A stretch of 64,000 bases of DNA. It comes from an uncultured virus (IMG/VR IMGVR_UViG_3300006120_000013) (taxonomy: Duplodnaviria; Heunggongvirae; Uroviricota; Caudoviricetes). The position numbers and the translations under genes were made by a program. Location: IMG/VR virus record IMGVR_UViG_3300006120_000013; one strand, written 5' to 3'. The notes under the pieces are model-generated. The model saw only the letters and a list, made by a program, of their open reading frames with translations. It was not told where the DNA came from and searched no databases. This document shows positions 7,201 to 58,963 of this stretch, piece after piece. How positions within the stretch are numbered: the first letter of the stretch is position 1; every line of letters begins with the position of its first letter.

Positions 7201-7761
7201 GTGTTTATACTCATTCCTTGGAAACGATCTTTAAACCTTGACGAGTTTTATGCTGAAGCGGCTCGTCGAGGTTTCGATAACAACTCCTCTCAAAAAAAGA
7301 TGATCGATTGTCTAGCGAATGAGGATAAATGGGCTGCTTGGATCTTATATCAAAATAATAAACCTATAGGATCTGTAGCAGCCCATTCTTTTGACAACAT
7401 TATGGGTCCAAACAGTTATAGAATATGTGTAAGAACTTGTATATTACCACATGATCGAGAATACAAAGCAGTTATAACAGCAAAAAGAGCGATAGCAGAA
7501 CATCAAAATCTTACTTCACAATTCTTCATACCTAAATGCATAGATTGGACTGGAAAACATAATAATTTGTATATAACATCAAATGAGAATAGTAGCGGTT
7601 CTCAAAAATTAGTTCATACTATATTTTTTCCAACTCTTGCTAAAAAAGGAATTATGACTAAGATTAAAGATGTTCATTATAGAGGAACAGATCAAACTGT
7701 TTGGAAACTTAATGTAGATCTTTTTATAAAAGATTTAGTACATTATCCTAGATGGAATTAA
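7201..7761 (+). CDS. Hypothetical protein, possibly GNAT-fold
   Basis: 186-aa ORF with GTG start; pattern W..ILY.NNKPIGSVAAH...YRICVRTC is loosely acetyltransferase-like. Confidence 0.5.
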   Translation: MFILIPWKRSLNLDEFYAEAARRGFDNNSSQKKMIDCLANEDKWAAWILYQNNKPIGSVAAHSFDNIMGPNSYRICVRTCILPHDREYKAVITAKRAIAEHQNLTSQFFIPKCIDWTGKHNNLYITSNENSSGSQKLVHTIFFPTLAKKGIMTKIKDVHYRGTDQTVWKLNVDLFIKDLVHYPRWN

Positions 7762-8438
7762 CAACTTATAATAATATTAAAATCAGTAAATGGTAATAAT
7801 TCTTGAACTTTATCAATAAATTGTCGTTCTACGTCAAACTTTACTATATTAGTACCATTAAAATTAAAATTATCAATAAGACCTCTCTTATTTGCTCTAT
7901 TAAGCCAGGGACTTAATTTATGGTCAAATCTATAACGAGCATCACTGTCGATTTTAGATATATCAAGAGTAATAGTCATACTAACTCTATCTTTTAATTC
8001 ACTATGAGTAAGTAATTGTCTCACAACTAATTGTGTTCTAGGAATACTACCAAAATTAGCAGCAACATGTAAACGACCTGCATCCATATCATACCATATA
8101 CCATCTTCTTCTACACGATGCATAATCTTATTATCTAAGTCAATTAGATATGCTTGCTCACCACGAATATTAAGATGCCAACGATCATCAATGTCTGCAT
8201 GACTATAATAGTTAACACCCCTATCCAATGTAATAAGTCTTGCTTCTCCCTTTGGGTAAGGAAGGGAGTTATATATCTTTTCCCAGATTGTTCCTCTATA
8301 TTCATCTTTTAATTCCCATTCATCATAAAAATAACTTGTTATAGGACGATTTATAGTAGTTCTATCATTTTCAGGGATAGACTCTTTTGCTTTTTCAATA
8401 TCTTCTAAATCTACAGAATAAATGGTTTCTCTAATCAT
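7758..8438 (-). CDS. 2OG-Fe(II) oxygenase-like (Asp/Asn beta-hydroxylase-like) protein
   Basis: HxD (SHAD), RWHLNI, WYDMDAGRLHVAAN..R motif layout of the double-stranded beta-helix fold. Confidence 0.7.
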   Translation of the reverse strand: MIRETIYSVDLEDIEKAKESIPENDRTTINRPITSYFYDEWELKDEYRGTIWEKIYNSLPYPKGEARLITLDRGVNYYSHADIDDRWHLNIRGEQAYLIDLDNKIMHRVEEDGIWYDMDAGRLHVAANFGSIPRTQLVVRQLLTHSELKDRVSMTITLDISKIDSDARYRFDHKLSPWLNRANKRGLIDNFNFNGTNIVKFDVERQFIDKVQELLPFTDFNIIISC

Positions 8439-8466
8439 GAAAATATTTAGTGGAGTAATATGCTAC

Positions 8467-8474
8467 TATAAATA
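8467..8474 (+). promoter_or_regulatory. T4-type late promoter TATAAATA
   Basis: Exact T4 consensus, then SD GGAG (8480-8483) and ATG 8491. Back-to-back with a minus-strand TAAATA at 8449-8444. Confidence 0.65.
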
Positions 8475-8490
8475 TTCTTGGAGAAAGCCT

Positions 8491-9327
8491 ATGGAAAAAG
8501 CAAACCTCGAACTACTAAGAGAAGCCTACGAAAAAAGTGAATTCAATAATATTATTCATAATGTTTCTGGTGTTTATATACCCTTAGACTTTAGTTGGAA
8601 GAATATAGGTATAGCTATGTCTGGTGGAATTGATAGCACTATGCTTTGCTATATACTTGCTGATTTAATTACTAAAAATAATTTAGATATAACCATACAT
8701 GTTACATCTCATGTGAGAGTTTGGAAATTTAGACCGTGGCAAAAAGATGTAAGTGAAAACGTATATAATTGGATGGTTAACCATTTTCCAAATGTTAAAT
8801 TTAAAAGATATGCTGGATTTATTCCACCAGATTTAGAATGGAAAAATAATGCTCCAACACTTGTTTTAAATGAGTACGGAGAAGAAGAATACGGTGATGT
8901 ACTTGTTATGAGATCATTTGCTGAATTTGTTGGTTGGCATCAAAATTTTGACGCTTATTTTAATGCAACTACAATGAATCCAGATGATCCTAATATTACA
9001 TTGGCATTAGATGTTAGAAATCTTACCTCTCAAGATATAATCGATCATTTTGATTATACTATAAAATATTATCGACTAGGAGATAATGTAATTACTTGTC
9101 ATCCTTTTCGCTTTATTCAAAAAGATTGGATTGTTGGAAGATATAAAGAATTTGATATATGGAATCTTTTTGAAATGACACGAAGTTGTGAAGGTGATCG
9201 TAACGAATATCCAGAAACATTTGGAAATTTAGATTATAGAACATATAAGGTAGGAATGGAAGTTCCTACATGTGGTAAATGTTTTTGGTGTCAAGAAAGA
9301 GAATGGGGTATTAAGAATGCTTTTTAA
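8491..9327 (+). CDS. QueC-like PP-loop (adenine nucleotide alpha-hydrolase) protein
   Basis: SGGIDS PP-loop; C-terminal TRSC...CGKCFWC Zn motif. Start moved to ATG 8491, which has an SD and avoids overlap with the divergent gene. Confidence 0.78.
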   Translation: MEKANLELLREAYEKSEFNNIIHNVSGVYIPLDFSWKNIGIAMSGGIDSTMLCYILADLITKNNLDITIHVTSHVRVWKFRPWQKDVSENVYNWMVNHFPNVKFKRYAGFIPPDLEWKNNAPTLVLNEYGEEEYGDVLVMRSFAEFVGWHQNFDAYFNATTMNPDDPNITLALDVRNLTSQDIIDHFDYTIKYYRLGDNVITCHPFRFIQKDWIVGRYKEFDIWNLFEMTRSCEGDRNEYPETFGNLDYRTYKVGMEVPTCGKCFWCQEREWGIKNAF

Positions 9328-10406
9328 GCATTCTTAGTTCTTTCAATTGTTTCATCATCAAAATGATGTAATGATTTACTAAATCTACCGCAATTTCTCA
9401 CACAAGTTATTAACTTTTTATTATTTTCAAATATATATTCTTTAAAAAATTGATTCCATTCTTCAGAATTCATAATTTCTTTAATTGATGATTTTGTAGC
9501 GTCAAGTGTTTTAAATGTATTAAAAAAATCTTGATTTTCTTTACATGAAATTTTACGAAAGGGATCAAGCATATCATTATAAACAGGACTAGTAAAAGAA
9601 GTTTGACCAAGAAATCCACAAGGATAAACTTTTTTAACTGCATCGATATAAATGAATTGCCATTCAGTAGCTATACATTTAATTGTTGCTTCTTCAAGAT
9701 AATCATGATAATTTTCTATTATTTCTTTAGTTATGCAGTCAGCAGTAGTATCAGTTGGTGGTTCTAAATAATAAAGATTATTACCATTCTTATCAACAAC
9801 TTTATATGGTTCATTATCTACATATCTAGAAGTATCTTTAACAGAAAAACTTTCAAAACCTAATTGTTTTGATAATTCTCTGCATTCATCGACTTGATGT
9901 TGATTGTGTTTAAATCTTATAAACTCCCAACTAGTATTTCCTCCAACATCGATAAATGCTTTAGCATTACTGATAATTTTGTTCCAATCTGTTCCAATCC
10001 TGTATATTTTATGTGTATCTTCTAATCCGTCTATTCCAAAAAGAACTTGATGATTTGTTGGCATATAATTTATAAGATTTTTCCACCATTGTTCTTTAAA
10101 AATGCTACCATTAGTAAAAACTTGTACAGATATATTAGGATTTGATTCTTTAATATATTCAAGCATATATGGTAAATCTTTATTAATAACTGGATCACCA
10201 TAATGACCACAGAACATAATATGTTTAATCTGATTAATAACTTCAGTATTGAGAATTATTTTAAAATCTTCTAAAGACCAATCAGATAAAACAAAATTTG
10301 AATTTTTTAATCCTCCATATACATTTCGAACACACATAGGACACGATGCTTGACATCTACTAGTTATTTCAAGATGTAATGCCTTTAACTTATCAAAAGT
10401 AAACAT
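9324..10406 (-). CDS. Radical SAM protein with C-terminal SPASM/twitch-like Cys domain
   Basis: CxxxCxxC (CQASCPMC), GDP, TNGS, FGIDG, KC...VYPC, C-terminal CVRNC. Confidence 0.9.
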   Translation of the reverse strand: MFTFDKLKALHLEITSRCQASCPMCVRNVYGGLKNSNFVLSDWSLEDFKIILNTEVINQIKHIMFCGHYGDPVINKDLPYMLEYIKESNPNISVQVFTNGSIFKEQWWKNLINYMPTNHQVLFGIDGLEDTHKIYRIGTDWNKIISNAKAFIDVGGNTSWEFIRFKHNQHQVDECRELSKQLGFESFSVKDTSRYVDNEPYKVVDKNGNNLYYLEPPTDTTADCITKEIIENYHDYLEEATIKCIATEWQFIYIDAVKKVYPCGFLGQTSFTSPVYNDMLDPFRKISCKENQDFFNTFKTLDATKSSIKEIMNSEEWNQFFKEYIFENNKKLITCVRNCGRFSKSLHHFDDETIERTKNA

Positions 10407-10925
10407 TTAAATCTTCCAACGATCCCACCAGCCATGAATTCCTTTTCTTCCTTCAATTGATGTTATTAATTCTGATTTACCGCCATTAAGACTTAGAACA
10501 AAATTTACAACATCGTCTGGGCGTAATGGCTTATTATCAGGTATTGGCATTCCTGCTTTGTGAAATACATGAGCAACATAATGTGAACAAATTTCACTAT
10601 CATATATATGAGGGTTCATATTGAACCCAACACGTAATGCATCAACAAAATGATACATTCTTCCTAATTTACGAACAGCACATCCTTCAACTTCATCTGT
10701 CCATTTAATTCCTGTAGGAATAACTACCACAGGTAAGTCTTCTTGGAGTAATCTTACACGAACACCACTATTCCATATTGCTTCTAGAACATAATATCTT
10801 CTATGGAATTTCCATAAAATTCCAACATGACTAAATTCGCTTCTTGTAAATTTAGTTATTATATGTCCAACTAAACTAGTAGGTCGCCAGGCTAACAACG
10901 AACCGCTTGGATATTGTGAGATCAT
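10407..10925 (-). CDS. Permuted papain-like amidase (YiiX/YaeF, C92-like)
   Basis: FSHVGI (His) precedes ICSHYV (Cys), with LEA and C-terminal P.D: permuted NlpC/P60 order. Confidence 0.75.
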   Translation of the reverse strand: MISQYPSGSLLAWRPTSLVGHIITKFTRSEFSHVGILWKFHRRYYVLEAIWNSGVRVRLLQEDLPVVVIPTGIKWTDEVEGCAVRKLGRMYHFVDALRVGFNMNPHIYDSEICSHYVAHVFHKAGMPIPDNKPLRPDDVVNFVLSLNGGKSELITSIEGRKGIHGWWDRWKI

Positions 10926-11515
10926 TATTTTTTTCCTATTAACATATACCTTGTATATTTTGGTAATTCCTTTTCACCTGCCCAAAGAACGTTAATGTGA
11001 CTCTGATCTCTAAAATCCTCTAAGGAGTTTGCAATCCGTACGTGTTCCGGAATGACATAATTGTTACTCTGTAATACTAATATACTATCTTTAGGCATAT
11101 TATTCAACCACGTTTCGTAGTCTGCCTGTGTAATGTGTTCACAAGAGGTATTAATTATAACCTCTGCATTAGTATTTACGTCAATCATGTTAGAAGTTAC
11201 TGCTGTAAATCTACCCTCTATTTCTTCTAACTTATTCATAGTGTATGCTGTGACTTCACACTCTGGATCTAAATCAAGAGATGTTATTCTGCTAATAGGA
11301 ATTCCCGACTGGAATAATAAACTTGCTAATACACCAACCCAGCCGCCGTGAATATCTATTCTAACAGATTTTTTAATAAACGGTCTTAAATTTTCAATTA
11401 ACCAAAGTTTTGAGTTAATTTGACCTTTCCAAAATGCTTCTAATGTTCTATTTTGATCTTTACTATTACGTATAGCATCCATCCAAAAAAGAATATGATC
11501 AACGTTCAAATTCAT
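10925..11515 (-). CDS. Class I SAM-dependent methyltransferase-like protein
   Basis: IHGGWVGVL glycine-rich motif, SLDLD, INTSCEH, LQSNN. Confidence 0.75.
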   Translation of the reverse strand: MNLNVDHILFWMDAIRNSKDQNRTLEAFWKGQINSKLWLIENLRPFIKKSVRIDIHGGWVGVLASLLFQSGIPISRITSLDLDPECEVTAYTMNKLEEIEGRFTAVTSNMIDVNTNAEVIINTSCEHITQADYETWLNNMPKDSILVLQSNNYVIPEHVRIANSLEDFRDQSHINVLWAGEKELPKYTRYMLIGKK

Positions 11516-13112
11516 CTTTTAACCATTTCCAATCATTAATATTTTTTAACATCTGCTCATCGTTAGCATATTTAGATCCAAACTCTTTTCCTGCTATTGC
11601 TCCGTTAATAGCAAACTCGCCAAATGGCTTATCTATTCCAATATTACACCAAATTTCAAGTCTTCTTTGAGATTCTTCGTCAACTTGACCTTGTATAATT
11701 TTACTAGAAAGTTTTACACATTCTCTAAATGCTGACTTCCATGTATTAAATGGATCTGTATTAAATATTGTAACATTACTAACCTTATTAACTGATATGA
11801 ATTTTTTACTAATAGAAGTTGTCATATCGACTGTATTAATATTCATTTCTATTACTGCTTGTGTAGGTAATAATTTTACACCACCATATCCATATATAAG
11901 ATTGTTTACAGAATTTCTACTTTTAAAAACATATACTGCATCTCTATCCCAAATTGGAACTTCCATATAAAAATTAAAATCATCTTCTATAATGGCATCA
12001 CCGTCAACTGCCCAAAACATACTAGTTTGGCACATTTTTGCTGCCTCAACGTGAGCATTATGAATTCCTTTAATCCCCTGAACTCTCTTTGCTCTAGGAA
12101 ATTTTTCTTTTAATTTTTTATAATTTTCATCTGCATTTGGTTCGTTGTAACTTATAAAAACAATATCAAAACACAAATAACTACATTCTATGTCAATTTC
12201 TTTTTTATTAATAAAAAAACTGTATTCTGCTTCTTTTTGTGTAATATTATATTTTTTAGGTATTAGATATAATCCACCGTAATCTCCAGTTTTATTTTTA
12301 AAAACATGTACATATTCTTTATCATACTCAGGAACTATATAATCTAATTCAAAAGTAGGAATATAATCTTTGTCGATAGCATAAAACATTGTAGTTTTAC
12401 AATATTTTTGTGCTTCAAAATAATCATCTGGGGTTGTTATCACAAATCTATCATAATTCAATTTACTTGCTACGATATCAATTTCTTTTTTATTAACAAA
12501 GAAATTATATTGTGCTTCTTTTTGTGTAATATTATATCTTTTTGGAATCAGATACACACCCTTATATTCATTATGATCTTCCTTAAAGATATGAACATAC
12601 TTTTGATCCCAATCTGGAACTATATAATCATTCTCAAATGTAGATTCATAATCTTTGTCGATAGCATAAAACATTTTAGTCTTACATTTTTTTTGTGCTT
12701 CAAAATAATCATCTGGGGTTGTTATCACAAATCTATTGTATGGAAGATAATATCCTGCTACAATATCGATTTCTTTTTTATTGACAAAGAAATTATATTC
12801 TGCTTCCCTTTTTGTAATATTATATTTTTTAGGTATTAAATAAACACCTGTATATTCTTCTGTTCTATCTTTGAATATATGGACGTATTTTTCATCCCAT
12901 TCTGGAATTATATAATCAAACTTAAAATTATTTTCTATTTCAAATCCTTCACTTATTATCCAAAAAAACTTAGACATAGATTTTTTTTGTGCTACAAAAA
13001 ATGCTTCCCAAGATTTATCTTCATAATTAGCAAGTTTTAATAAAGGAAATTTTTCCTGTAATTTTAAAAATCCATAATCTTTTTCTTTAGATATATAAAA
13101 AATATCATACAT
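11499..13112 (-). CDS. Glycosyltransferase-like protein (GT-A) with three tandem N-terminal ~95-aa repeats
   Basis: C-terminal domain DIVFISYNEPNAD...AH..AA...WAVDGD (DxD)...YGYGGVKL...AFRECVKL; N-terminal repeats visible in protein and DNA. Confidence 0.75.
   Translation of the reverse strand: MYDIFYISKEKDYGFLKLQEKFPLLKLANYEDKSWEAFFVAQKKSMSKFFWIISEGFEIENNFKFDYIIPEWDEKYVHIFKDRTEEYTGVYLIPKKYNITKREAEYNFFVNKKEIDIVAGYYLPYNRFVITTPDDYFEAQKKCKTKMFYAIDKDYESTFENDYIVPDWDQKYVHIFKEDHNEYKGVYLIPKRYNITQKEAQYNFFVNKKEIDIVASKLNYDRFVITTPDDYFEAQKYCKTTMFYAIDKDYIPTFELDYIVPEYDKEYVHVFKNKTGDYGGLYLIPKKYNITQKEAEYSFFINKKEIDIECSYLCFDIVFISYNEPNADENYKKLKEKFPRAKRVQGIKGIHNAHVEAAKMCQTSMFWAVDGDAIIEDDFNFYMEVPIWDRDAVYVFKSRNSVNNLIYGYGGVKLLPTQAVIEMNINTVDMTTSISKKFISVNKVSNVTIFNTDPFNTWKSAFRECVKLSSKIIQGQVDEESQRRLEIWCNIGIDKPFGEFAINGAIAGKEFGSKYANDEQMLKNINDWKWLKDEFER
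12405..12736. repeat. Intragenic direct repeat, 285-nt period
   Basis: 47 identical bp at 12405-12451 and 12690-12736 (TTTTTGTGCTTCAAAATAATC...CACAAATCTAT). Confidence 0.9.
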
Positions 13113-13114
13113 TA

Positions 13115-14011
13115 CTAGCGTTTTCTTCCAATAATTCTAGGTGTATTTTGATACACTCTCTTAAAAAACTTTGAAGCATTAGAATCCATTTCTGCAATTT
13201 CGAGTTGTAACTCAATTCTTAGACTTTCTCCAATATTAAGAATTTGTTCGTCTATATTATCATTGTTGATTTTAGGTTCTATTTCTTCTTTCCAGTAATT
13301 TGTAAGATATTTAAAATCTCTTACATTGATATAATCCCATTTTGTACAATTAGTTTTATAACAACCTAAACGAGATCCATAGATTGCCCATTTACCATTT
13401 TTAACATCAGCACCAACACTCATCCATATTAATAATCTTTGATAATTTTGCCACCAAACACTTTGTATATCATTTGTTCTTTGAGCTCTATTAAGACTCA
13501 TTTTTACACCTTCTCTAAACCCTGCTCTCCAGGCTTGAAAAGGTGAACCGTTTATATAACTTGTTGAGTAATGTTGATTAAATTGATAATAACGCGGATC
13601 AAAACAAAATTCTAAAACACTTTCTTGATCATTAGGATCTGAATTTTCATGAGTTTTCATATTAAGAACAAAATCTTTTGTCCAGCATTTTAATCCACCG
13701 TTACCATATATAAGACCATTAACTGCATTTTTTCCTGCCCACGAAAACACATAATCTTTATTCTTATCATCTATCTCTATTTCTTGAGTATAAAATTCAG
13801 GATCTACAATATTATCACCATCAACAGTAATAAATCTATCTGTTTCGCTTAAATTGGCGGCGGCTTTGTGAGCAGCATCGCTTCCATCTACACCATGTAC
13901 TCTTTTAGCCCAAGGCAATATGTTAAGCAATTCTGAATAATGCTTATCTGCATTAGGTTCATCATAACTTATAAAAATTGTATCGATTTCATGAAGAACT
14001 AATTTTGTCAT
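13115..14011 (-). CDS. Glycosyltransferase-like protein (paralogue of the catalytic domain of 11499-13112)
   Basis: IFISYDEPNAD, AHKAAA, TVDGD (DxD), YGNGGLK, AGFREGVKM. Confidence 0.75.
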   Translation of the reverse strand: MTKLVLHEIDTIFISYDEPNADKHYSELLNILPWAKRVHGVDGSDAAHKAAANLSETDRFITVDGDNIVDPEFYTQEIEIDDKNKDYVFSWAGKNAVNGLIYGNGGLKCWTKDFVLNMKTHENSDPNDQESVLEFCFDPRYYQFNQHYSTSYINGSPFQAWRAGFREGVKMSLNRAQRTNDIQSVWWQNYQRLLIWMSVGADVKNGKWAIYGSRLGCYKTNCTKWDYINVRDFKYLTNYWKEEIEPKINNDNIDEQILNIGESLRIELQLEIAEMDSNASKFFKRVYQNTPRIIGRKR

Positions 14012-14672
14012 CTCTTATATCCACATGTAAATAATTTTGAAAATATCTTATTGAAAAAATTGTTACGTCTTCACCATTAAATCTATCTATAGTTTTGTCA
14101 TTATTAGCTCGATCTTTAAAATTTATAATATAATAGTCAGTATCGTTTGTTAAATCGTCTAAAGTAAGATTTAAAGTTTTATATAAAATATTAGGATCGT
14201 ATGGTGCTGTAACATATAAAGATATTTTATAGAATCCCATACTCTGATTCTTATATTTTAATTTGTTTTCATCTGACAATTTAATTCTAAATTCTCCTTT
14301 TATATTATCTTGTTCAATCAATAAATCAAAGGATTCTTCAATTTTTTTGTCTTCTTTACTTTTAATTTTGGGCAATTCGTAGATAAAATCATCGATTCTA
14401 GTTAAAGATAAATCCTCAGGAACACAAGATTCTATTTTAGATTTACCATCTTCAACTACAACTCGATAATTTGCTATATTAAATTTTTGTAAAGGCTCAG
14501 TTAAATCTTTTTCTTCAAGAATAACAAAAGGAAAAGGATCGGTAGAATCTAAATAATTCCTAAAATTAATTATTTTACCAGAAGAAACCTCGTAATGAAC
14601 ATAAAAGGATGGTCTTTTATTAAGTGCTTCTTCTTGCTTTCTTAAATATTCAAAAATTTCTTCTTCTGTCAT
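13989..14672 (-). CDS. Hypothetical protein
   Basis: Likely ATG at 14672 (ATGA overlap with the upstream stop); no recognisable motif. Confidence 0.65.
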   Translation of the reverse strand: MTEEEIFEYLRKQEEALNKRPSFYVHYEVSSGKIINFRNYLDSTDPFPFVILEEKDLTEPLQKFNIANYRVVVEDGKSKIESCVPEDLSLTRIDDFIYELPKIKSKEDKKIEESFDLLIEQDNIKGEFRIKLSDENKLKYKNQSMGFYKISLYVTAPYDPNILYKTLNLTLDDLTNDTDYYIINFKDRANNDKTIDRFNGEDVTIFSIRYFQNYLHVDIRDDKISSS

Positions 14673-15529
14673 TTTGAATCCCAAATATTTAATATTTTTT
14701 CATATTTTAAAATTCTATCATCATTTAAAAAATTCTTTTCTGTATAATGAAAGATACCTGTTTGCTGATAGTTTCCAATTTTTAATCGGCAATCATCATT
14801 AAAATAAGATCCAACATCATTTGTCCACTTTTCAGTACAAATACTCCATTTTTGATCATGACTTTTCATATGAGTAAATGTAGGATAATCTAAACTAGAA
14901 AATACTTCATTCTCTATGCCTAAAATCTTTACTGCTAATGCAAAAGCCACATCAATACTAAGACGAACAGGTTTTGCTTCTTTTAAAAATCTATTATAAC
15001 AGTTTTTCCAATCTTTAACAATTAATTCAACCAATTCCCAAAACTGTTTTGACAATTCTGTTTTTTTAAAATAAGTGAATGCGCTATAGCAATTAGGAAG
15101 ATCGTTTTTAAAAAATGTTTCTCTATAATAAGAATTTGTTATTAATTCATTTCTATATGTAAAAACTTTATCTGTAATGAGTAAATCAAAATTTTTACCC
15201 ATATAACTCCACCACTGACTAACATCCGACAAAAATAGCATATCAGAATCTAATATTACTGTTTCTTCGTATGGAGATATATGATATAATTTCCATCGAT
15301 TTTCTATTTTCCATTCAGAATTAAAAGCATCATCGTACCATTTGATAGGTAAAACTTGATCAAAAACATTATAATAATGTTTAGGAACAGCATCGGGGAT
15401 ATCAGTAACTAAAGTTATTTTATTAATTTTAGATTGTGTTAATTTAATAGACATAGCCAATGCATATGCCATTTTAACATAATCATCAACTCCGTTATTT
15501 TGTGCAAGAACTAAGTATCCTTTATCCAT
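14669..15529 (-). CDS. Glycosyltransferase-like protein (GT8/mannosyltransferase-like)
   Basis: SPYEETVILDSDMLF (DxD), YSAFTYFKK, D.AFA, FHY. Confidence 0.75.
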   Translation of the reverse strand: MDKGYLVLAQNNGVDDYVKMAYALAMSIKLTQSKINKITLVTDIPDAVPKHYYNVFDQVLPIKWYDDAFNSEWKIENRWKLYHISPYEETVILDSDMLFLSDVSQWWSYMGKNFDLLITDKVFTYRNELITNSYYRETFFKNDLPNCYSAFTYFKKTELSKQFWELVELIVKDWKNCYNRFLKEAKPVRLSIDVAFALAVKILGIENEVFSSLDYPTFTHMKSHDQKWSICTEKWTNDVGSYFNDDCRLKIGNYQQTGIFHYTEKNFLNDDRILKYEKILNIWDSK

Positions 15530-16409
15530 TAATTACCTCTAGCAATTTTTCTTCATGTCTACCAATACTAAATTTATTCATTATATGAACATTTTGATTA
15601 TTCGTTTTTGCTAATGTATATTCACCAAGATGCTGTTTCTTTTGAACTAAAAAAATAAAAGATTTATCGTTATCAACTCTTATTAATTCATCTCTATCTA
15701 ATGTATAATAAATTTCACATGGCAACGATGATGGATTTATCTTATTATTAAATCCTCCCATTATATGGATTGCTATACTAAACACATAATCATTACGGAG
15801 TAAAGGAGCAGTTATTCTATAAGCAAATCGATAATATTCATAATTTTCTACAATATGTTGACATAACCCAAAAAACGTTTTTGTCCACAAATTCTTTTTA
15901 AAGTAAAATGCCGTGGCCCAAAAGAAATCAATTCCTTGATCGCTGACTCTATCAAATTCAACAGCATTTCTATCATTTGCTAAATCATAAGATATTCTAT
16001 TAATCATAAAATCTTCATCTGAATCCCAAACATTATTAAGACGATCATTGACTATTAATAAATCTACATCTATAACTAAGGTTTGATCATAAGGAGTTAA
16101 TTCATATGCCCAAGCTCTGTGTGCATTTTTAAAATCTGCTTTTTTAAAGTCTAAAGATCCATCATAATATCTTCTATGTTGGTTAACATTAATATTCAAT
16201 TCACTTGTTAAAATTATTTTATCAAATATTTTTTCTAAATCTAACTTATCTTCTTCTTTCATCCACCCTAATGTTCCTTCATTGGTTACTAAACTAATTG
16301 GAACATTTAAATTCTTCTTAACAAAGTGAGCAGAAATATATGCCATTTTGCCATAATCTATTTGAGAATTATTATATGCAAAAAACAATACACCTTTACT
16401 CATTTTCAA
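15522..16409 (-). CDS. Glycosyltransferase-like protein (paralogue of 14669-15529)
   Basis: TPYDQTLVIDVDLLI (DxD), WATAFYFKK, RNDYVFSIA. Confidence 0.75.
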   Translation of the reverse strand: MKMSKGVLFFAYNNSQIDYGKMAYISAHFVKKNLNVPISLVTNEGTLGWMKEEDKLDLEKIFDKIILTSELNINVNQHRRYYDGSLDFKKADFKNAHRAWAYELTPYDQTLVIDVDLLIVNDRLNNVWDSDEDFMINRISYDLANDRNAVEFDRVSDQGIDFFWATAFYFKKNLWTKTFFGLCQHIVENYEYYRFAYRITAPLLRNDYVFSIAIHIMGGFNNKINPSSLPCEIYYTLDRDELIRVDNDKSFIFLVQKKQHLGEYTLAKTNNQNVHIMNKFSIGRHEEKLLEVING

Positions 16410-52651: not shown

Positions 52652-53413
52652 ATGTTTATCTATAAAATTACAGCGGGCGGAAAAGTATATATAGGGTTTG
52701 ATACTAAACCTACATATAAGAAATCTAGATGGAAAGATCATTGTCGAGAATCGTTAAAAGATAATCCTAAAAGAAAAATCCATATTATCATGAAAGAAGT
52801 AGGAATTGAAAATTGTCAGTATGAAGTAATTGATGATTCTTTTTCTTCTTTAGGATCATTAGCACTATCTGAAATCGAATACATTGAAAAATATAATTCT
52901 TTTAAGAATGGTCTTAATTCTAGTCTAGGAGGAGATGGGTTAGGACACACGGGATTTTCAAAACTTACAGAAGATGAAATACAGAAAATTAGAGAAAAAT
53001 TAGGTTCTAAATTAAAAGATTATAACACTAATATAAAGTGGGCTAATACTACTAAAGAAGATAGAAAAAAGTTAACAGCACATCTTCATACTCAAGAGAT
53101 TTATGAAAAAAGATCTAATACCTTAAAAGAATTTTATAAAGAAAATCCAGAAGAAAAATCTAAAAAAAGTAAAGGTATTACTAATTGGCAAAAACATAAT
53201 CGAGATACTTTACTCAACAACAATAAAAAGAATTCTATAAAAGGAGCAGAAAAAGTTTCTAAAAAAATAAAAGTTGAATTAGAAGATGGTACTCTGCTAT
53301 ACTATAAAAGTAAAAGTGACTTTCAAAGGCAAACTGGCCAGTGGGCTAATACTATTATTCAAAAAACTAAATTAGGTAATTTTTTTAACGGCTACAAAGC
53401 ATGGGAAATATAA
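52652..53413 (+). CDS. Free-standing GIY-YIG homing endonuclease (Seg-like)
   Basis: FIYKIT...VYIG...RW..H...E..YI..YNS...GLN; basic DNA-binding C-terminus; inserted between gp55 and gp47. Confidence 0.85.
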   Translation: MFIYKITAGGKVYIGFDTKPTYKKSRWKDHCRESLKDNPKRKIHIIMKEVGIENCQYEVIDDSFSSLGSLALSEIEYIEKYNSFKNGLNSSLGGDGLGHTGFSKLTEDEIQKIREKLGSKLKDYNTNIKWANTTKEDRKKLTAHLHTQEIYEKRSNTLKEFYKENPEEKSKKSKGITNWQKHNRDTLLNNNKKNSIKGAEKVSKKIKVELEDGTLLYYKSKSDFQRQTGQWANTIIQKTKLGNFFNGYKAWEI

Positions 53414-54427
53414 ATGGCTAATCTTTTCAAGAAAATTGCTGCGATGACTGACATCCATTTTGGCCTTAAAAGTAATTCTAAGATTCATAATGATGACTGT
53501 GAAGAATTTGTAGATTGGTTTATAGAAACTGCCAAGAAAGAAAATTGTGATACCGCAATATTCTGCGGCGATTGGAACCACAATCGAAACACAATCAATA
53601 TTACTACCATGAATGCTGGTTTGTCTTCGTTAGAGAAACTAGGAAAGGCATTTGACAACTTCATTTTCTTTCCTGGTAATCACGACCTCTATTACAAAGA
53701 CCGAAGAGATGTTACTTCTGTAGCATTTGGTAGACATATTCCTGGCGTTAATATGATTACTGAACCTACTGTTATAGATGATGTTGCATTAGTTCCATGG
53801 CTTATAGGCGACGAGTGGAAAAACTTAGCCAAGGTAAAAAGTCGATACATGTTTGGACATTTTGAACTACCGTTATTTTATATGAACGCGATGGTTCAAA
53901 TGCCCGACCATGGAGAATTACAAGTAGATAGTTTAAGAAATAATGAAATTGTTTTTTCAGGACATTTCCATCATAGGCAGGCAAGAGATAATGTTCATTA
54001 CATCGGTAATGCCTTTCCTCACAATTATGCCGATGCCGGAGACGATGACCGTGGTATGATGATTTTAGAATGGGGCGGGACACCAAAATATATTAACTGG
54101 CCAAAAATGCCGACTTATAGAACTGTGAAGTTAAGTCAATTAATTGACAACATGGATACCATGTTAAAATCTAAAATGCATCTACGTGTAGCACTAGACA
54201 TTGATATTAGTTTTGAAGAAGCAAACTTTATCAAAGAAACTGTTATGGGAAATTATGATATTAGAGAATGTACTCTTGTTCCTGAGAAAAAAGAATTAGA
54301 AGGAAATTCAACATTAGAAATTACTAATTTTGAATCAGTTGATCAAATTGTTACCAATCAGATTGTAAACATTGAGAGTGAAAACTATAATAGTAAAATA
54401 TTGCTGGAGATTTATAACAACTTATGA
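53414..54427 (+). CDS. gp47: Recombination nuclease gp47 (Mre11/SbcD-like)
   Basis: TDIHFG, GDWNH, GNHD, GHFE, SGHFH metallophosphoesterase motifs. Confidence 0.93.
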   Translation: MANLFKKIAAMTDIHFGLKSNSKIHNDDCEEFVDWFIETAKKENCDTAIFCGDWNHNRNTINITTMNAGLSSLEKLGKAFDNFIFFPGNHDLYYKDRRDVTSVAFGRHIPGVNMITEPTVIDDVALVPWLIGDEWKNLAKVKSRYMFGHFELPLFYMNAMVQMPDHGELQVDSLRNNEIVFSGHFHHRQARDNVHYIGNAFPHNYADAGDDDRGMMILEWGGTPKYINWPKMPTYRTVKLSQLIDNMDTMLKSKMHLRVALDIDISFEEANFIKETVMGNYDIRECTLVPEKKELEGNSTLEITNFESVDQIVTNQIVNIESENYNSKILLEIYNNL

Positions 54428-56202
54428 TTCGTATTAAGAATTTAACCGTTAAAAATTTCATGAGTGTGGGTAATCAAACTCAAGGAGTTGATTTTGAAAA
54501 AGAGCAACTAACCCTTGTTCTTGGAGAAAACTTAGATCAAGGAGGAGATGATAATGGGTCTAGAAACGGTACTGGTAAAACTACTATCGTTAATGCTCTC
54601 AGTTATAGCATTTTTGGTCAAGCTCTTACCAATATAAAAAAAGACAACTTAATTAATAAGATTAACCAAAAAAATATGTTGGTTACAATTAATTTTGAAA
54701 AAGATGGAACAACTTATCGAATTGAGCGAGGACGTAAACCTACCCTCTTAAAATTCTATGTCAATGATCACGAACAAGAAATCGATGATGTTGACGAATC
54801 CCAAGGCGATAGTCGTAAAACTCAAGAAGCAATTAATGATCTCATAGGTATGACACATACAATGTTCAAACACATTGTAGCACTTAATACCTATACAGAA
54901 CCATTCTTGAGTCTAAGAGCAAATGATCAAAGAGAAGTTATTGAACAACTTCTCGGTATTACTGTTCTATCTGAAAAAGCAGACTTACTTAAAGAACAAG
55001 TAAAGATTACAAAAGATAATATTGTTCAAGAAAATGCTAAAATTGAAGCAATAAAAGCAAGTAATGATCGAATTAAAACTACTATTGAGAGTTTGAAACT
55101 AAAGCAGTCAATTTGGTATAATAAACAAAACGACGAATGTAATAAAATGTATCAAGCAATAACTCAATTAGAAGAAATTGATATTAAAAACGAACTCGAA
55201 AATCACGAAGCATTAAAATTGTGGTTAGAAAATAACGACGCAATTAAGGCTCTTAATAAAGAAAAAAGTAGTCTTGAAAGTGCTATGATCCAAGCACAAA
55301 AAGTAGTAGATAAAAGCGAAAAAGATCTTAAAAAGACCGAAGACCATAATTGTCATGCCTGTGGTCAAACACTTCACGATGAAAAACGTGAACAAATGGT
55401 TAAAAAACTTACTAAAGAACTTAAAGATAATGAAAAGTATCTTAAAGAAGTAAGTGATAAACTTGTTGATATCGGTACGGCATTAGAAGAAATAGGAGAG
55501 ATAAATGCTCGTCCTAATACTTTCTACGACCGTGTAGAAGATGCATATGATCATAAAAATAATTTAGAAAATCTTAAAAATAAAATTGAAGAAGTTAAGA
55601 ACTCTGTAGATCCTTACCAAGAACAAATAAATGAACTTGAGAATACTGCTGTTCAAGAACTCGATTGGACTAAGGTAAATGATCTTACAAGTCTAAAAGA
55701 CCATCAAGAGTTCTTACTTAAACTTTTAACAAATAAAGATTCATTTATTCGTAAGAAAATTATAGATCAAAATTTAAGTTACTTAAATCAACGTCTAACT
55801 TATTATCTTGATAAGACAGGATTGCCACACCAAGTAACATTTCAAAATGATCTGAGTACAGAAATTACTCAACTTGGACAAGATTTAGATTTTGATAATC
55901 TATCAAGAGGAGAACGAAACAGACTTATTCTAAGTTTGAGTTGGGCGTTTCGTGATATGTGGGAAAATCTATATCAACCTATTAATTTATTGTTTATTGA
56001 TGAGTTGATCGATAACGGGTTAGATGCTGCTGGTGTAGAAAATTCACTTGCAATCCTAAAAAAGATGGCTCGTGAACGAAATAAGAATATATATCTCATC
56101 TCCCACAAGGATGAACTTGTAGGAAGAGTGAATAATGTTCTAAAAGTCATTAAAGAAAATGGTTTTACTTCTTATTCAAATTGTATAGATATAGTTGATT
56201 AA
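54424..56202 (+). CDS. gp46: Recombination ATPase gp46 (Rad50/SbcC-like)
   Basis: KNFMSVGN, Walker A NGTGKTT, coiled coil with zinc hook CHAC, signature LSRGE, Walker B LFIDE, ISH. Confidence 0.94.
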   Translation: MIRIKNLTVKNFMSVGNQTQGVDFEKEQLTLVLGENLDQGGDDNGSRNGTGKTTIVNALSYSIFGQALTNIKKDNLINKINQKNMLVTINFEKDGTTYRIERGRKPTLLKFYVNDHEQEIDDVDESQGDSRKTQEAINDLIGMTHTMFKHIVALNTYTEPFLSLRANDQREVIEQLLGITVLSEKADLLKEQVKITKDNIVQENAKIEAIKASNDRIKTTIESLKLKQSIWYNKQNDECNKMYQAITQLEEIDIKNELENHEALKLWLENNDAIKALNKEKSSLESAMIQAQKVVDKSEKDLKKTEDHNCHACGQTLHDEKREQMVKKLTKELKDNEKYLKEVSDKLVDIGTALEEIGEINARPNTFYDRVEDAYDHKNNLENLKNKIEEVKNSVDPYQEQINELENTAVQELDWTKVNDLTSLKDHQEFLLKLLTNKDSFIRKKIIDQNLSYLNQRLTYYLDKTGLPHQVTFQNDLSTEITQLGQDLDFDNLSRGERNRLILSLSWAFRDMWENLYQPINLLFIDELIDNGLDAAGVENSLAILKKMARERNKNIYLISHKDELVGRVNNVLKVIKENGFTSYSNCIDIVD

Positions 56203-56203
56203 A

Positions 56204-56461
56204 ATGCGTATATATCGTGTTGATGATAGAGAAGTTAAAGTAGAAAAAGATTTACACGATCAGATAATGATTGAAATTGTCAAATACTTTGAAGCAAACG
56301 AATTATGGGAAACCAAAGGATGGGACTATAAAGGTCTTGAGGCAAGAAATGCATTAGGAAGATTAAGAGTTGTTGCCCGAAGAAGACGAATGGAAATACA
56401 AGAAAAAAGAAAAAAAAGAGTAAAAAAATCAGATAAACAGAAAGGTAAAAGTAATGAGTGA
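56204..56461 (+). CDS. Small basic protein, Hc1/histone H1-like paralogue
   Basis: G..ARNALGRLRVVARRRRMEIQE aligns with the next ORF (G.RARKALGEM.K..KARRNEI); Lys/Arg-rich tail. Confidence 0.6.
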   Translation: MRIYRVDDREVKVEKDLHDQIMIEIVKYFEANELWETKGWDYKGLEARNALGRLRVVARRRRMEIQEKRKKRVKKSDKQKGKSNE

Positions 56462-56648
56462 AACAATTAAAACAATCGCAGATCATTTTGCTGCTTGGCA
56501 AGCCGAAGATGCAAAGTTTGTAGGTGGTAATTCTGCTGCTGGTACTAGAGCACGTAAGGCCCTTGGAGAAATGAGCAAGGCAATTAAGGCTCGTCGTAAC
56601 GAAATCACAGCAGAAAAGAACGCCCGCAAGGAAGCAAAAGCGAAGTAA
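56454..56648 (+). CDS. Hc1/histone H1-like small basic protein
   Basis: KF..GNSAAGTRARKALGEMSKAIKARRNEI, the pattern of the Hc1 family N-terminal domain. Confidence 0.72.
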   Translation: MSETIKTIADHFAAWQAEDAKFVGGNSAAGTRARKALGEMSKAIKARRNEITAEKNARKEAKAK

Positions 56649-57062
56649 TTGACTTGGCACTATCAAGGTGCCGTCATTGAGGAACTACCAGAAGATTGTG
56701 TTGGATTTGTTTATTGCATAACCAATACAACCACTGGTAGAAAGTATATAGGTAAAAAATTAGCAAAGTTTTCCAGAACAAAATACAAGACGGTTACGCA
56801 GAAGAACGGGAAAAAAATTAAAAAAAAGATCAGATCAAAAGTAGATTCTGATTGGCAAGAATATTGGTCAAGTTCTACGGAACTAAAAGATGATGTTATA
56901 TCTTTAGGGGCAGACAAGTTTACTCGAGAGATACTAAAGTATTGTAAGTCAAAAAACGAACTATCGTACTACGAAGCAAAATACCAGTTCGATTTTGATG
57001 TATTGTTAGATGGGAAGTTGTGGTATAATAAATGGATTTCTGTGAAGGTAAGAACGCTTTGA
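56649..57062 (+). CDS. Minimal GIY-YIG nuclease (SegE-like family of T4-like phages)
   Basis: GFVYCIT...RKYIGKK, SDW..YWSSS, FTREIL, YYE, WYN; TTG start directly after the upstream stop; no separate DNA-binding domain. Confidence 0.82.
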   Translation: MTWHYQGAVIEELPEDCVGFVYCITNTTTGRKYIGKKLAKFSRTKYKTVTQKNGKKIKKKIRSKVDSDWQEYWSSSTELKDDVISLGADKFTREILKYCKSKNELSYYEAKYQFDFDVLLDGKLWYNKWISVKVRTL

Positions 57063-57709
57063 CTTATGTATATTGGTTACATCTGCCTGAGCATACTGAC
57101 GCAAATATAGAAGGTTATGTTGGAGTTTCTAGAAACCCATCTTACCGTCTCTGGGAACACCGCAACGACGTGAAAAAAGATAATCACTGCAACCCTTACC
57201 TATCTAGAGTTATTAAAAAATATTCTAACAATCTAACTCAAACAATTTTATTCGAAGGAAGCGAAGAAGAGTGTTACGATTATGAAGAGAAACTCCGCCC
57301 AATTAAAAATATAGGCTGGAATCTCAACAAAGGTGGGTTTCACCCCCCGTCTGCATCTGGTAGAGTATTATCTGCTGATCATAAAGTTAAAATTGGTAAA
57401 AGCAATACAGGAAAAAAACATCCACACAACGAAGAGGCCAAACAAAAAATCTCTCAAGCTCGTAAAGGCATATCCTTATCTAACGTAACTAAAGAAAAAA
57501 TTAGTGATAAAAGAAAATCTCAAGTATTTTCAGAGAATACTAAACAAAAAATGAGTGATTCTCACAAAGGCAATGTTCCAGGGAATGCCAAAACAATAAA
57601 AACACCTTTAGGCACGTTTACTTCAATTAAAAAAGCAGCCAAGGCATATAATTTATCAAGATTTAAGTTTGAAAATTATATCAAACACAATCCAGATTTC
57701 AGTTTCTAA
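57059..57709 (+). CDS. GIY-YIG homing endonuclease with NUMOD3-like repeats
   Basis: YVYW...GYVGVS...RL.EH...E...GWN.NKGG, then four repeats of H/S.E.K.KIS..KG type. Probable TTG start 57059 overlapping the upstream TGA, with GAAGG SD at 57044-57048. Confidence 0.85.
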   Translation: MTYVYWLHLPEHTDANIEGYVGVSRNPSYRLWEHRNDVKKDNHCNPYLSRVIKKYSNNLTQTILFEGSEEECYDYEEKLRPIKNIGWNLNKGGFHPPSASGRVLSADHKVKIGKSNTGKKHPHNEEAKQKISQARKGISLSNVTKEKISDKRKSQVFSENTKQKMSDSHKGNVPGNAKTIKTPLGTFTSIKKAAKAYNLSRFKFENYIKHNPDFSF

Positions 57710-57720
57710 TTTATAGGCTA

Positions 57721-58066
57721 TAGGTCCTGTTTGGTCGAAGTAGTTCGACCCTCATCGAGTCCACAATTGTGGTCAGACTTTGAGTACCGTTAAACAATGC
57801 TCCTAAAAACCTTGGAAACTAGGAACGAGTCCAAGGCATCGCAAGATGTGTCGTGGTAGGTTGGGAAAGCACAGAGCCCGTGGAGCGTAAAAATACCTAC
57901 TTCCGTATCTCGGCTGGTGTAACTCACATGAAGTTATCGAGATTGGTGGAACCGTAGTAGGTTCCATCTGACTGATATAATCTACATGAAATTATCTCTT
58001 AAATCAAAAAGAAAATGTGATGCTTGAGTTTACGAAAGCAATCACTGATGAGCGTTAGCTCATCAC
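57721..58066 (+). ncRNA. Putative large structured non-coding RNA (family not recognised)
   Basis: Only long ORF-free gap in the window; 119/250 GC (about 48%) over 57721-57970; at least 8 helices, a GCAA tetraloop, a pseudoknot candidate, and G-U pairs that only work on the + strand. Confidence 0.65.
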
Positions 58067-58072
58067 TTAATA

Positions 58073-58079
58073 ATAAATA
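58073..58079 (+). promoter_or_regulatory. Late promoter ATAAATA
   Basis: Same motif as in front of other structural genes; upstream of ATG 58103. Confidence 0.55.
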
Positions 58080-58102: not shown

Positions 58103-58963
58103 ATGAATCTAAATGATCTTAATGAAGCACCAATGGGAATGTTGAATAAATTTGGACAAAAAATATTGTCTAAGATTCCTGGAAGTATAGGACATCAAGC
58201 AAAAGGTAAACTTGATACTGGTCGTGTTGCTAATCTTTGGAAAGATCAATATATGAAATACCTTGGTCAAATTGGTCAAAAACATCCTAGTTCAGAAAAT
58301 TTATCAGATTTTTTAAAATCAAAAGGATTTACACCTGACGATATAACAAATGTAATTAAAGAATCCTCTTTAGCATATGAAAGAATCTTAACTGGTAAAG
58401 AAGTAGATAGTTTAATCTTAAAAGCTGTTCAACAATCTGCTAGTAGATCTCCGAGTGGTCGAGTTGAACCACAAAGTGATTTAATTTCTCCAAATCAAGC
58501 ACCTAATAATGTTCCTACAAAAGCACCACCGGTACAATCTCCAAATCAAGCACCTAATAATGTTCCTACAAAAGCACCTTTAGCAAAAACAGCATCACCT
58601 GTACAAAAAAGTAATAATTCTATAAGTTCTTATCTTAATTCTTGGACAAAAGATATTAAATCAGCAACAAGTGATAAAGAAAAATTCGATCTTGCTAGAG
58701 AAATGATTAAATTTTTGTCTGATCGTAAAGGATCACCTGAAGCAAAATCAGGTGCTGCTGCGGCAATGAGTGTTCTTAAGAGAATGAATAATCCATTATT
58801 AGCAAAAGCTGCACAAGGATTAAGTCATTTAAGAATGGAACGTGCAAATTATATTATAGCAAGCAATCTTTTAAAAGAAAATAACATTTATTGGAAAGAT
58901 CTTGGATATAAAATTGTAATTTCTGAATCAACTTTAACACATGTAGTAATTGCTTGCCGCTAA
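58103..58963 (+). CDS. Hypothetical late protein with a Pro-rich tandem-repeat linker
   Basis: MNLNDLNEAP N-terminus; SPNQAPNNVPTKAP occurs twice. Confidence 0.7.
   Translation: MNLNDLNEAPMGMLNKFGQKILSKIPGSIGHQAKGKLDTGRVANLWKDQYMKYLGQIGQKHPSSENLSDFLKSKGFTPDDITNVIKESSLAYERILTGKEVDSLILKAVQQSASRSPSGRVEPQSDLISPNQAPNNVPTKAPPVQSPNQAPNNVPTKAPLAKTASPVQKSNNSISSYLNSWTKDIKSATSDKEKFDLAREMIKFLSDRKGSPEAKSGAAAAMSVLKRMNNPLLAKAAQGLSHLRMERANYIIASNLLKENNIYWKDLGYKIVISESTLTHVVIACR
58487..58578. repeat. Intragenic direct repeat, 41 identical bp, 51-nt period
   Basis: TCTCCAAATCAAGCACCTAATAATGTTCCTACAAAAGCACC at 58487-58527 and 58538-58578. Confidence 0.92.

What the first reader, a model, noticed from the sequence alone, without database searches (positions are those of the whole stretch)
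56204..58070. Candidate RNA-protein system: Hc1-like pair, catalytic-only GIY-YIG nuclease and downstream structured RNA
Seen: gp46, two small basic proteins, the 137-aa GIY-YIG ORF and the NUMOD3 endonuclease are abutting or overlapping on one strand and run directly into the structured region. The 137-aa protein has the GIY-YIG catalytic core plus a very basic insert (KFSRTKYKTVTQKNGKKIKKKIRSK) but no C-terminal DNA-binding domain. Established: GIY-YIG homing endonucleases such as I-TevI get specificity from appended DNA-binding modules, and compact nucleases encoded next to structured RNAs (HEARO/omegaRNA with IscB/IsrB) proved to be RNA-guided. Inference: the minimal nuclease may use or process the RNA, and the NUMOD3 gene may be a later selfish insertion between two originally adjacent partners.
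Basis: inference. Interest (0 to 1): 0.75.

Follow-up and report, generated by a model that had tools for sequence, protein, structure and literature searches.

The report
Phage RNA beside swappable junction nuclease
A large folded RNA gene in giant aquatic phages sits behind either of two unrelated DNA-cutting enzymes, so it is not a guide for one of them; it ends in a short sequence repeated twice whose copies almost always match, which suggests the RNA pairs with its own DNA, perhaps to start replication.

Summary
The gene order is confirmed, and the NUMOD3 gene is a later insertion: a close relative has the nuclease directly before a near-identical RNA. The RNA-guided nuclease idea is not supported. 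The same RNA family follows an unrelated Holliday-junction-resolvase-like gene in 44 of 68 loci. The two nucleases exclude each other in 8 complete genomes. Identical SegE-like proteins precede different RNA classes. Earlier notes of this scan reached 'neighbours, not partners' on other DNA.

What this adds: the RNA is a pseudoknotted, apparently single-copy family of about 280-400 nt that extends Rfam Polynucleobacter-1. It ends in two 7-nt direct repeats around a hairpin. Their sequence varies but the copies match (150 of 150 distinct cores), with no complementary partner nearby on the same strand. DNA-type hairpins resembling the ColE1 primosome-site region follow.

Best reading (0.45): a transcription-activated replication origin with a ColE1-like pre-primer RNA, next to a GIY-YIG protein that fills the resolvase role. 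No expression or activity data were obtained, and GC skew shows no switch here.

The parts
54424..56202 (+). gp46-like recombination ATPase (context; end of the gp55-gp47-gp46 block)
   Evidence: ORF; late sigma factor upstream at 51776 is phrog_12791; the gp46/gp47 names rest on recalled motifs and on the same gene order annotated in phage Paride; homologues precede the slot in most loci
56204..56461 (+). 85-aa basic protein, probable remote paralogue of the Hc1-like protein; optional
   Evidence: No family hit; profile-profile probability 99.7% to the Hc1-like protein
56454..56648 (+). 64-aa Hc1-like basic protein; optional (either paralogue found in 61 of 143 loci within about 0.9 kb upstream of the nuclease)
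   Evidence: PF07432 49 bits; count (ATG starts only)
56649..57062 (+). Compact SegE-like GIY-YIG nuclease with basic beta-hairpin; occupies the slot that holds a Holliday-junction-resolvase-like gene in sister phages
   Evidence: PF19835 and phrog_447; fold I-TevI Z 8.3, rmsd 2.6, 82 aligned; slot swap
56866..57711 (+). Homing-endonuclease cassette: replaced 3' half of the SegE-like gene plus the NUMOD3 endonuclease gene
   Evidence: Against L003 the DNA matches at 23-30 of 30 nt per block up to about 56858, diverges densely from 56866, and matches again from 57712
57059..57709 (+). Free-standing GIY-YIG/NUMOD3 homing endonuclease
   Evidence: PF07460 41 bits, phrog_314 homing endonuclease E 4e-20
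57712..57993 (+). Structured RNA, class C of a phage family whose class A carries Rfam Polynucleobacter-1 at its 5' end; ends not mapped experimentally
   Evidence: Covariation on 33 class C and 59 class A sequences; a class C model finds two elements of other classes weakly, E 0.027 and 0.029; no Rfam hit for the window itself
57810..57914 (+). Pseudoknotted core: hairpin 57810-57836 whose loop can pair with 57901-57904; stem 57856-57861 with 57895-57900; 3-bp pseudoknot 57853-57855 with 57870-57872, compensated in the window itself
   Evidence: the 3-bp pseudoknot is 100% paired, 2 of 3 pairs change on both sides; the loop pairing and the central stem are nearly invariant, so covariation does not test them
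57926..57932 (+). Direct repeat 1 (ACATGAA, after ACTC)
57945..57968 (+). 9-bp hairpin between the repeats
   Evidence: (helix 8, 98.3% paired)
57984..57990 (+). Direct repeat 2 (ACATGAA, after ATCT), 58 nt after repeat 1
58017..58065 (.). Two hairpins of single-stranded-DNA type (one with tandem GA pairs, one with a C-GTTA-G loop); candidate primosome or helicase loading region
   Evidence: DNA fold z = -4.5; only 2 such C-G-closed hairpins in the 64-kb window; loop statistics in relatives

Best explanation
The locus is the conserved end of the recombination operon of a clade of roughly 350-kb T4-like phages. It has three layers. (1) A nuclease slot, filled by either this compact GIY-YIG protein or an unrelated PD-(D/E)XK protein labelled Holliday junction resolvase. 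The GIY-YIG protein most likely cuts branched DNA in the resolvase's place (swap shown; activity inferred, about 0.7). (2) A selfish homing endonuclease that entered with a new 3' half of the GIY-YIG gene (shown by comparison, about 0.95; its target site is inferred). (3) A pseudoknotted RNA plus downstream DNA hairpins that most likely form a transcription-activated replication origin working like ColE1. In this model repeat 1 in the nascent RNA pairs with the template strand at repeat 2 and seeds a persistent RNA-DNA hybrid, the RNA supplies the primer, and the displaced strand folds into hairpins that load priming proteins (all inferred). The nuclease is a neighbour that may or may not cut the resulting branched structure; it is not guided by the RNA.
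For: Repeats: the four variable positions are identical between the copies in 150 of 150 distinct cores, against 51-59% expected per position; the search pattern did not require identity (120 of 120). In loci chosen by upstream motifs, 97 of 99 class C and 94 of 94 class A/B cores have identical 7-mers, and several off-consensus cores keep matching copies. No co-varying complement was found on the same strand from -330 to +150 even with wobble, so the obvious partner is the other DNA strand or an antisense RNA. Strand partition over 255 elements: 5' of the repeats, GNRA loops 52 top vs 2 bottom; 3' of them, C-GNA-G triloops 150 top and 97 bottom; a GAGCG-n-AGCGA-type motif on the top strand in 174 of 255 (bottom 20, 5' control 16). 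ColE1 shows the same order on one strand: G6 at 927, G6 near 1175, GAGCGTAGCGA near 1333. AT content rises from 0.46-0.62 to 0.67-0.72 just after repeat 2. One exact copy of the core motif in each of 5 records. RNase H lies next to the region in L341 and in phage Phosso. Resolvase slot: PF24608 / phrog_244 in 6 of 6 tested; 3 complete genomes have SegE-like but neither PF24608 nor EndoVII (T4 control rings); 5 complete genomes with the resolvase lack SegE-like; nuclease type changes 9 times on a gp46 tree of 127 rows.
Against: No transcript, R-loop or origin activity was observed. Fourfold-site GC skew shows no switch at the element in two genomes sampled at 17 x 10 kb each. The window lacks the strict ColE1-like motif and has only a variant hairpin. 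The motif is not unique in all genomes: a related pattern has 0-10 hits per genome against 2-5 for its control. A 7-bp hybrid is short, and near-absence of wobble is stricter than a seeding contact needs. Class D elements repeat only 4-5 nearly fixed bases. RNase H adjacency was seen in only 2 cases. The four PA5oct ncRNAs reported in PMC7318152 lie elsewhere than its equivalent region at 75-78 kb. Cyanophage S-SRM01 has both a SegE-like gene and EndoVII-like matches. Slx1 and HIGLE are only weak fold matches (Z 2.8, 3.6). The ColE1 G-tract pairing mechanism is recalled; two paper searches aimed at it found nothing and a third listed one review that I did not open.
Confidence: 0.45

Rival explanations
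1. The RNA is a trans-acting non-coding RNA (scaffold, packaging or regulatory) that only happens to end the operon. The repeats are kept alike by slippage across the hairpin, and the downstream hairpins serve transcription or some other job.
For: Complex pseudoknotted fold with variable 5' domains; no skew switch; 4 of 148 element-first loci have neither nuclease within the flank.
Against: Identity has sharp edges: position -1 is never identical and position +8 is identical in 22%, the chance level. Loop types switch to DNA type on both strands after repeat 2.
Confidence: 0.2
2. The element is a recombination or concatemer-resolution site: transcription drives a cruciform or slipped-strand junction between the repeats, and the adjacent resolvase cuts it.
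For: 143 of 148 element-first loci have one of the two nucleases upstream. Adjacency survives rearrangement in L078 and L086. Free sequence with required identity is typical of strand-exchange overlaps (general knowledge).
Against: The repeats are only 47-74 bp apart, too close for ordinary excision. Two hundred or more nucleotides of RNA-type structure with G-U pairs would be unexplained.
Confidence: 0.15
3. The RNA core is catalytic, or forms a complex with whichever branch nuclease is present, and uses repeat 1 as an internal 6-7-nt guide to nick or prime its own DNA at repeat 2.
For: Invariant bases inside a multi-pseudoknot core; near-perfect repeat identity; whole-module swaps between close relatives.
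Against: No Rfam ribozyme or group II model hits at E <= 5 in 20 loci; no activity data; a complex with two unrelated nuclease folds is unlikely.
Confidence: 0.13
4. One reading: the compact GIY-YIG is an RNA-guided nuclease, like IscB or IsrB with omega-RNA.
For: Adjacency in 123 of 134 SegE-first loci; basic beta-hairpin.
Against: The RNA pairs with an unrelated nuclease; identical proteins go with different RNA classes; homologues have no adjacent RNA; no free guide segment seen.
Confidence: 0.05

Closest known systems
Rfam RF01718 Polynucleobacter-1 RNA (Weinberg et al. 2010, PMC2864571; seen: text passages with the table row, and supplement search hits)
   Same: It forms the 5' domain of class A elements in the same slot (10 of 17 loci; 8 of 20).
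   Different: The Rfam model covers 141 nt only. The window's class C lacks this domain. The shared 3' core, repeats and DNA hairpins lie outside the model.
ColE1 origin with RNA II pre-primer and pas/ssiA (PMC3167613 and PMC5778457, passages read; record NC_001371)
   Same: Long RNA, then a repeated short tract, then a GAGCG-n-AGCGA motif on the RNA-sense strand. The papers state that the RNA primer is processed by RNase H and that pas is a single-stranded hairpin signal.
   Different: No sequence homology was sought or seen in the RNA part. The repeat is a variable heptamer 58 nt apart, not a G run about 245 nt apart. No antisense RNA I or Rop equivalent identified. It lies in a phage genome. 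That the ColE1 motif at 1333 is pas, and the G-tract pairing mechanism, are recalled.
PF24608 / phrog_244 phage 'RusA-like Holliday junction resolvase'
   Same: Same slot after gp46, directly before the same RNA, mutually exclusive with the SegE-like gene in the 8 complete genomes tested.
   Different: Unrelated fold (PD-(D/E)XK). Its resolvase name is an annotation, not a test seen here.
T4 SegE (PF19835; PMC2988022 passages list it as an active free-standing GIY-YIG endonuclease targeting uvsW)
   Same: Same catalytic subfamily; both lack an arginine after the YIG motif in the alignment.
   Different: T4 SegE is 205 aa with a C-terminal extension and no basic hairpin, and scores 29.5 bits on the family against 107-125 for the compact forms. 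The compact protein behaves as a conserved single-copy gene.
HEARO / omega-RNA with IscB or IsrB (recalled)
   Same: Small nuclease gene next to a pseudoknotted RNA.
   Different: There, one nuclease family co-evolves with its RNA and a free guide lies at the RNA end. Here the nuclease is interchangeable and the only free segment matches the locus itself.

Membership tests
RNA-guided nuclease system (OMEGA-like) | Nuclease and RNA are obligate, co-evolving partners | tested here: not met
RNA-guided nuclease system (OMEGA-like) | Variable guide segment that targets DNA outside its own locus | tested here: inconclusive
   Only the self-matching heptamer was seen in alignments; the variable 5' leaders were not searched for targets
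RNA-guided nuclease system (OMEGA-like) | RNA-dependent DNA cleavage | not testable with these tools
   Needs biochemistry
Rfam Polynucleobacter-1 (RF01718) | Match at or above the gathering score | tested here: not met
   Window: no hit. Class A relatives score 85-121 bits
PF19835 SegE_GIY-YIG | Score above the cut-off and GIY-YIG fold | tested here: met
   107.3 bits vs 25; I-TevI Z 8.3, rmsd 2.6, 82 aligned; invariant Y22, Y33, G35, E109, N127
Holliday junction resolvase (functional class), for the 137-aa protein | Replaces the annotated resolvase and no other resolvase family is found in the genome | tested here: met
   only PF24608 and PF02945 were searched; S-SRM01 outside the clade has both SegE-like and EndoVII-like matches
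Holliday junction resolvase (functional class), for the 137-aa protein | Cuts four-way junctions symmetrically | not testable with these tools
   Needs biochemistry
Free-standing GIY-YIG homing endonuclease, for 57059-57709 | GIY-YIG plus NUMOD3 modules, optional among close relatives, with co-converted flank | tested here: met
ColE1-type RNA-primed origin | Structured RNA on one strand, repeated tract, pas-like hairpins on the displaced strand | tested here: inconclusive
   The order is matched in relatives; the window has only a variant hairpin
ColE1-type RNA-primed origin | Transcript forms a persistent hybrid and primes DNA synthesis | not testable with these tools
   No RNA data obtained; no skew switch
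Reverse-transcriptase template with terminal repeats (DRT2-like, recalled) | Reverse transcriptase encoded with the RNA | tested here: not met
   PF00078 in 0 of 5 records, 3 of them complete; control rang in 3 of 14

The most novel reading that the evidence does not exclude
The RNA is a self-targeting initiator. Its pseudoknotted core presents a freely changeable 7-nt internal guide that recognises the complementary DNA strand 58 nt downstream. The RNA alone, or with whichever branch nuclease fills the slot, nicks or primes there. That would give each phage a private, swappable origin key.
Probability: 0.15. Interest if true: 0.9.

Novelty: new variant of a known kind. Interest (0 to 1): 0.6.

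Why it matters
I know of no mapped replication origin for this group of jumbo phages (own knowledge, not searched for specifically), and Polynucleobacter-1 had no assigned function in the passages I saw. The matched-repeat rule gives a direct genetic test: break one repeat, then restore identity. The slot swap also suggests a function, junction resolution, for a very large phage family (7,994 hits among 8,000 candidates scored) that PHROG labels 'NAD synthetase' and records label so or as homing endonuclease. It removes this locus from the list of likely RNA-guided nucleases.

Tried and rejected
Rfam on the window: no hit at gathering, two chance-level hits at E 4-8. No tRNA. Blastn of the window's element and of one class A and one class D element against 50,697 phage records: nothing meaningful. 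nhmmer and a class C covariance model found no element in Paride, Phosso, SCTP-2, Melnitz, phiN3 or S-SRM01 loci, and the covariance model none in the T4 locus; Phosso does have a GC-rich 1-kb gap with one such DNA motif on the other strand. A third, complementary segment in cis: rejected. SegE as reader of the heptamer: rejected, since identical proteins go with different heptamers. Reverse-transcriptase template jumping: rejected. Group II intron, RNase P and C/D-box resemblances were noticed by eye and recalled, and got no Rfam support. GC skew: no switch. Sigma-70 promoter and terminator scans: at chance level. Sequence search of the PDB: nothing significant; Foldseek had no match at E <= 0.001. 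The careful SegE tree did not finish; the 16 class changes printed come from the quick tree with no shuffle control, and the 9 changes on the gp46 tree also lack one. In the pair counts, helix 1 of A5 and helix 9 of A3 are out of register in the alignment (58% and 53% paired) and are not evidence. Paper searches listed no description of this RNA beyond PMC2864571; the library lacks most subscription papers, and I saw only search hits from that paper's supplements. No expression data and no oligomer prediction were obtained.
Full report
Observation. The window is part of a T4-like jumbo phage; the 137-aa protein is on record on a contig of 352,510 bp. The families are Hc1 (PF07432), SegE_GIY-YIG (PF19835, phrog_447) and NUMOD3 (PF07460). 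The basic insert is a long beta-hairpin in a confident model. The best fold matches are I-TevI (Z 8.3), a 5hmC restriction enzyme (6.6), the UvrC N-terminal domain (5.6) and T4 EndoII (5.3). The non-coding stretch has no Rfam match.

The NUMOD3 gene is an insertion. Locus L003 has the nuclease directly followed by a near-identical element. Its DNA matches the window closely up to about 56858, diverges from 56866 and matches again from 57712. So the cassette brought a new 3' half of the nuclease gene. Among distinct loci, this C-terminal allele has an endonuclease-like ORF before the RNA in 5 of 9 cases; the common allele has any ORF there in 9 of 114, two of them endonuclease-like by eye (Pfam supports L001 and L455, not L459, L464 or L472). 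Co-conversion of flanking DNA is described for T4 free-standing endonucleases (PMC2988022, passages).

The RNA is real by covariation and belongs to a wider family. Of 149 distinct SegE-first loci, 15 had too little downstream DNA; the element was detected in 123 of the other 134. Of the 11 misses, 7 come from another phage group with coding DNA right after the gene, 3 form a group whose one inspected member (L505) carries a divergent element, and 1 has the element inverted upstream. I sorted the elements into four sequence classes, A to D. Class A starts with Rfam Polynucleobacter-1, which one paper in the library names (PMC2864571; passages and supplement hits). On 59 class A sequences my structure is 90.1% paired with 31 of 43 pairs changing on both sides; on 33 class C sequences it is 91.2% paired with 10 of 39. 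No shuffle of 500 reached those values, and slid controls were far lower. Relatedness inflates such tests, the structures were derived from these alignments, and one helix in each is out of register. A long-range pairing and a 3-bp pseudoknot co-vary in class A; the window itself carries a compensated version of the 3-bp pseudoknot. Folding energy of the RNA part alone is unremarkable (z -0.75). No transcript was seen.

The nuclease is interchangeable. Element-first searches gave 148 distinct loci with at least 1.8 kb upstream (27 shorter ones and 3 without a profile hit were dropped): 134 have SegE-like upstream, 9 have another nuclease, 4 have neither, and 1 has SegE-like downstream. The patterns came from SegE loci, so the ratio is biased. 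The other nuclease is PF24608 / phrog_244, annotated as a RusA-like Holliday junction resolvase. Searching from that protein gave 68 distinct loci: 44 have a class A or B element downstream, none has SegE-like, and 62 have gp46 upstream; the 13 remaining loci that I inspected carry class D. Three complete genomes have SegE-like and lack both PF24608 and EndoVII (T4 control). Five complete genomes with the resolvase lack SegE-like (G011, G012, Paride, SCTP-2, Phosso). Nuclease type changes 9 times on a FastTree of 127 gp46 C-terminal segments, and relatives 94% identical there differ in type (no shuffle control). Among 96 loci, 19 pairs of SegE proteins at 93% identity or more differ in RNA class or heptamer, and one such pair is identical. 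In Melnitz, phiN3 and S-SRM01 the homologue is followed within 150 nt by a gene. S-SRM01 has EndoVII-like matches as well, so exclusivity is not universal.

The 3' core obeys a strict rule. Two 7-nt direct repeats flank a hairpin, 47-63 nt apart in 150 distinct cores. All four variable positions are identical between the copies in 150 of 150, against 51-59% expected. In loci picked by upstream motifs, 97 of 99 class C and 94 of 94 class A/B cores have identical 7-mers. Of 15 loci where no consensus core was called, 3 look like unrelated matches, 1 lacks repeat 1, and 11 show matching 6-11-nt repeats of other sequence by eye. Two rows among the resolvase loci differ at position 1. Class D repeats only 4-5 nearly fixed bases. 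No complement co-varies on the same strand, with or without wobble, and no reverse transcriptase was found in 5 records. Free sequence with enforced identity points to base pairing with the opposite strand.

Downstream of repeat 2 the signature changes from RNA to DNA. In 255 elements, the 5' part has GNRA loops on the top strand (52 vs 2). The 3' part has C-GNA-G triloop hairpins on both strands (150 and 97), and a GAGCG-n-AGCGA-type motif on the top strand in 174. That such triloops are stable in DNA is recalled. ColE1 has a G run, a second G run and this motif in the same order on its RNA II strand. PMC3167613 and PMC5778457 (passages) describe the RNA primer and the single-stranded pas hairpin; the G-run pairing model and the placing of pas at that motif are recalled. 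The window has a variant of these hairpins. The core motif occurs once exactly in each of 5 records.

Mechanism. I commit, at 0.45, to a transcription-activated origin. Repeat 1 in the RNA captures the template strand at repeat 2, a hybrid persists, the RNA primes synthesis, and the displaced strand loads priming proteins. Shown: structure by covariation, the repeat rule, the hairpins, single copy in the records tested, the nuclease swap. Inferred: everything about function. Against it: no skew switch in 34 sampled regions of two genomes, no expression data, and the published PA5oct ncRNAs lie elsewhere (PMC7318152 passages). Rivals are an unrelated trans-acting RNA (0.2), a resolution site (0.15), a self-guided catalytic RNA (0.13) and the RNA-guided GIY-YIG (0.05).

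Novelty. Earlier notes of this scan reported the nuclease-RNA neighbourhood on other genomes and judged them non-obligate; my tests agree. The short summaries shown to me do not mention the matched repeats, the resolvase identity of the replacement gene or the DNA hairpins. Paper searches found no such description in the held library. I rate it a new variant of a known kind, interest 0.6.

Noticed in passing
window 52652-53413 +: A second free-standing GIY-YIG homing endonuclease (phrog_314, phrog_5123) between the late sigma factor and gp47; a homologue appears in only 1 of the other loci listed.
   Followed up: partly
window 58103-58963 +: 286-aa protein without a convincing family hit, with an internal duplicated stretch near 58486-58580 and a near-match to the T4 late promoter (recalled consensus) at 58072-58079; optional among relatives.
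   Followed up: partly
L001, L455, L459, L464, L472, L483, just after the SegE-like stop: The inserted endonuclease genes share a leader of roughly 70-90 nt; the window's endonuclease lacks it. Earlier scan notes describe such a cassette as antisense-folding.
   Followed up: no
L341:752-1168 (-) and L619:3600-3986: An RNase H gene lies between resolvase and element in L341, and beyond a 1-kb GC-rich gap next to the resolvase in phage Phosso.
   Followed up: partly
L326, after the core motif: This element seems to lack repeat 1 and the hairpin while keeping repeat 2; a natural deletion or an assembly error.
   Followed up: no
L078:3546-3707 (-) and L086: Rearranged cases: element inverted upstream of the nuclease (L078), or directly upstream of it on the same strand away from gp46 (L086).
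   Followed up: partly
L441-L446, L449-L453 (genome contigs): The element occurs in contigs binned into bacterial MAGs of unrelated taxa, 9 of them with the SegE-like gene; probably misbinned phage DNA.
   Followed up: partly
window 40-1404 + and 7758-16403: The first ORF looks like an acyl-CoA dehydrogenase and the block at 7.7-16 kb like sugar-modifying and radical-SAM genes; by eye from N-terminal sequence only.
   Followed up: no
window 56649-57062: The family lacks the arginine that PMC2988022 lists as catalytic in I-TevI motif B at the position I expect from recall, and has invariant K37 and D68; T4 SegE also lacks it.
   Followed up: partly
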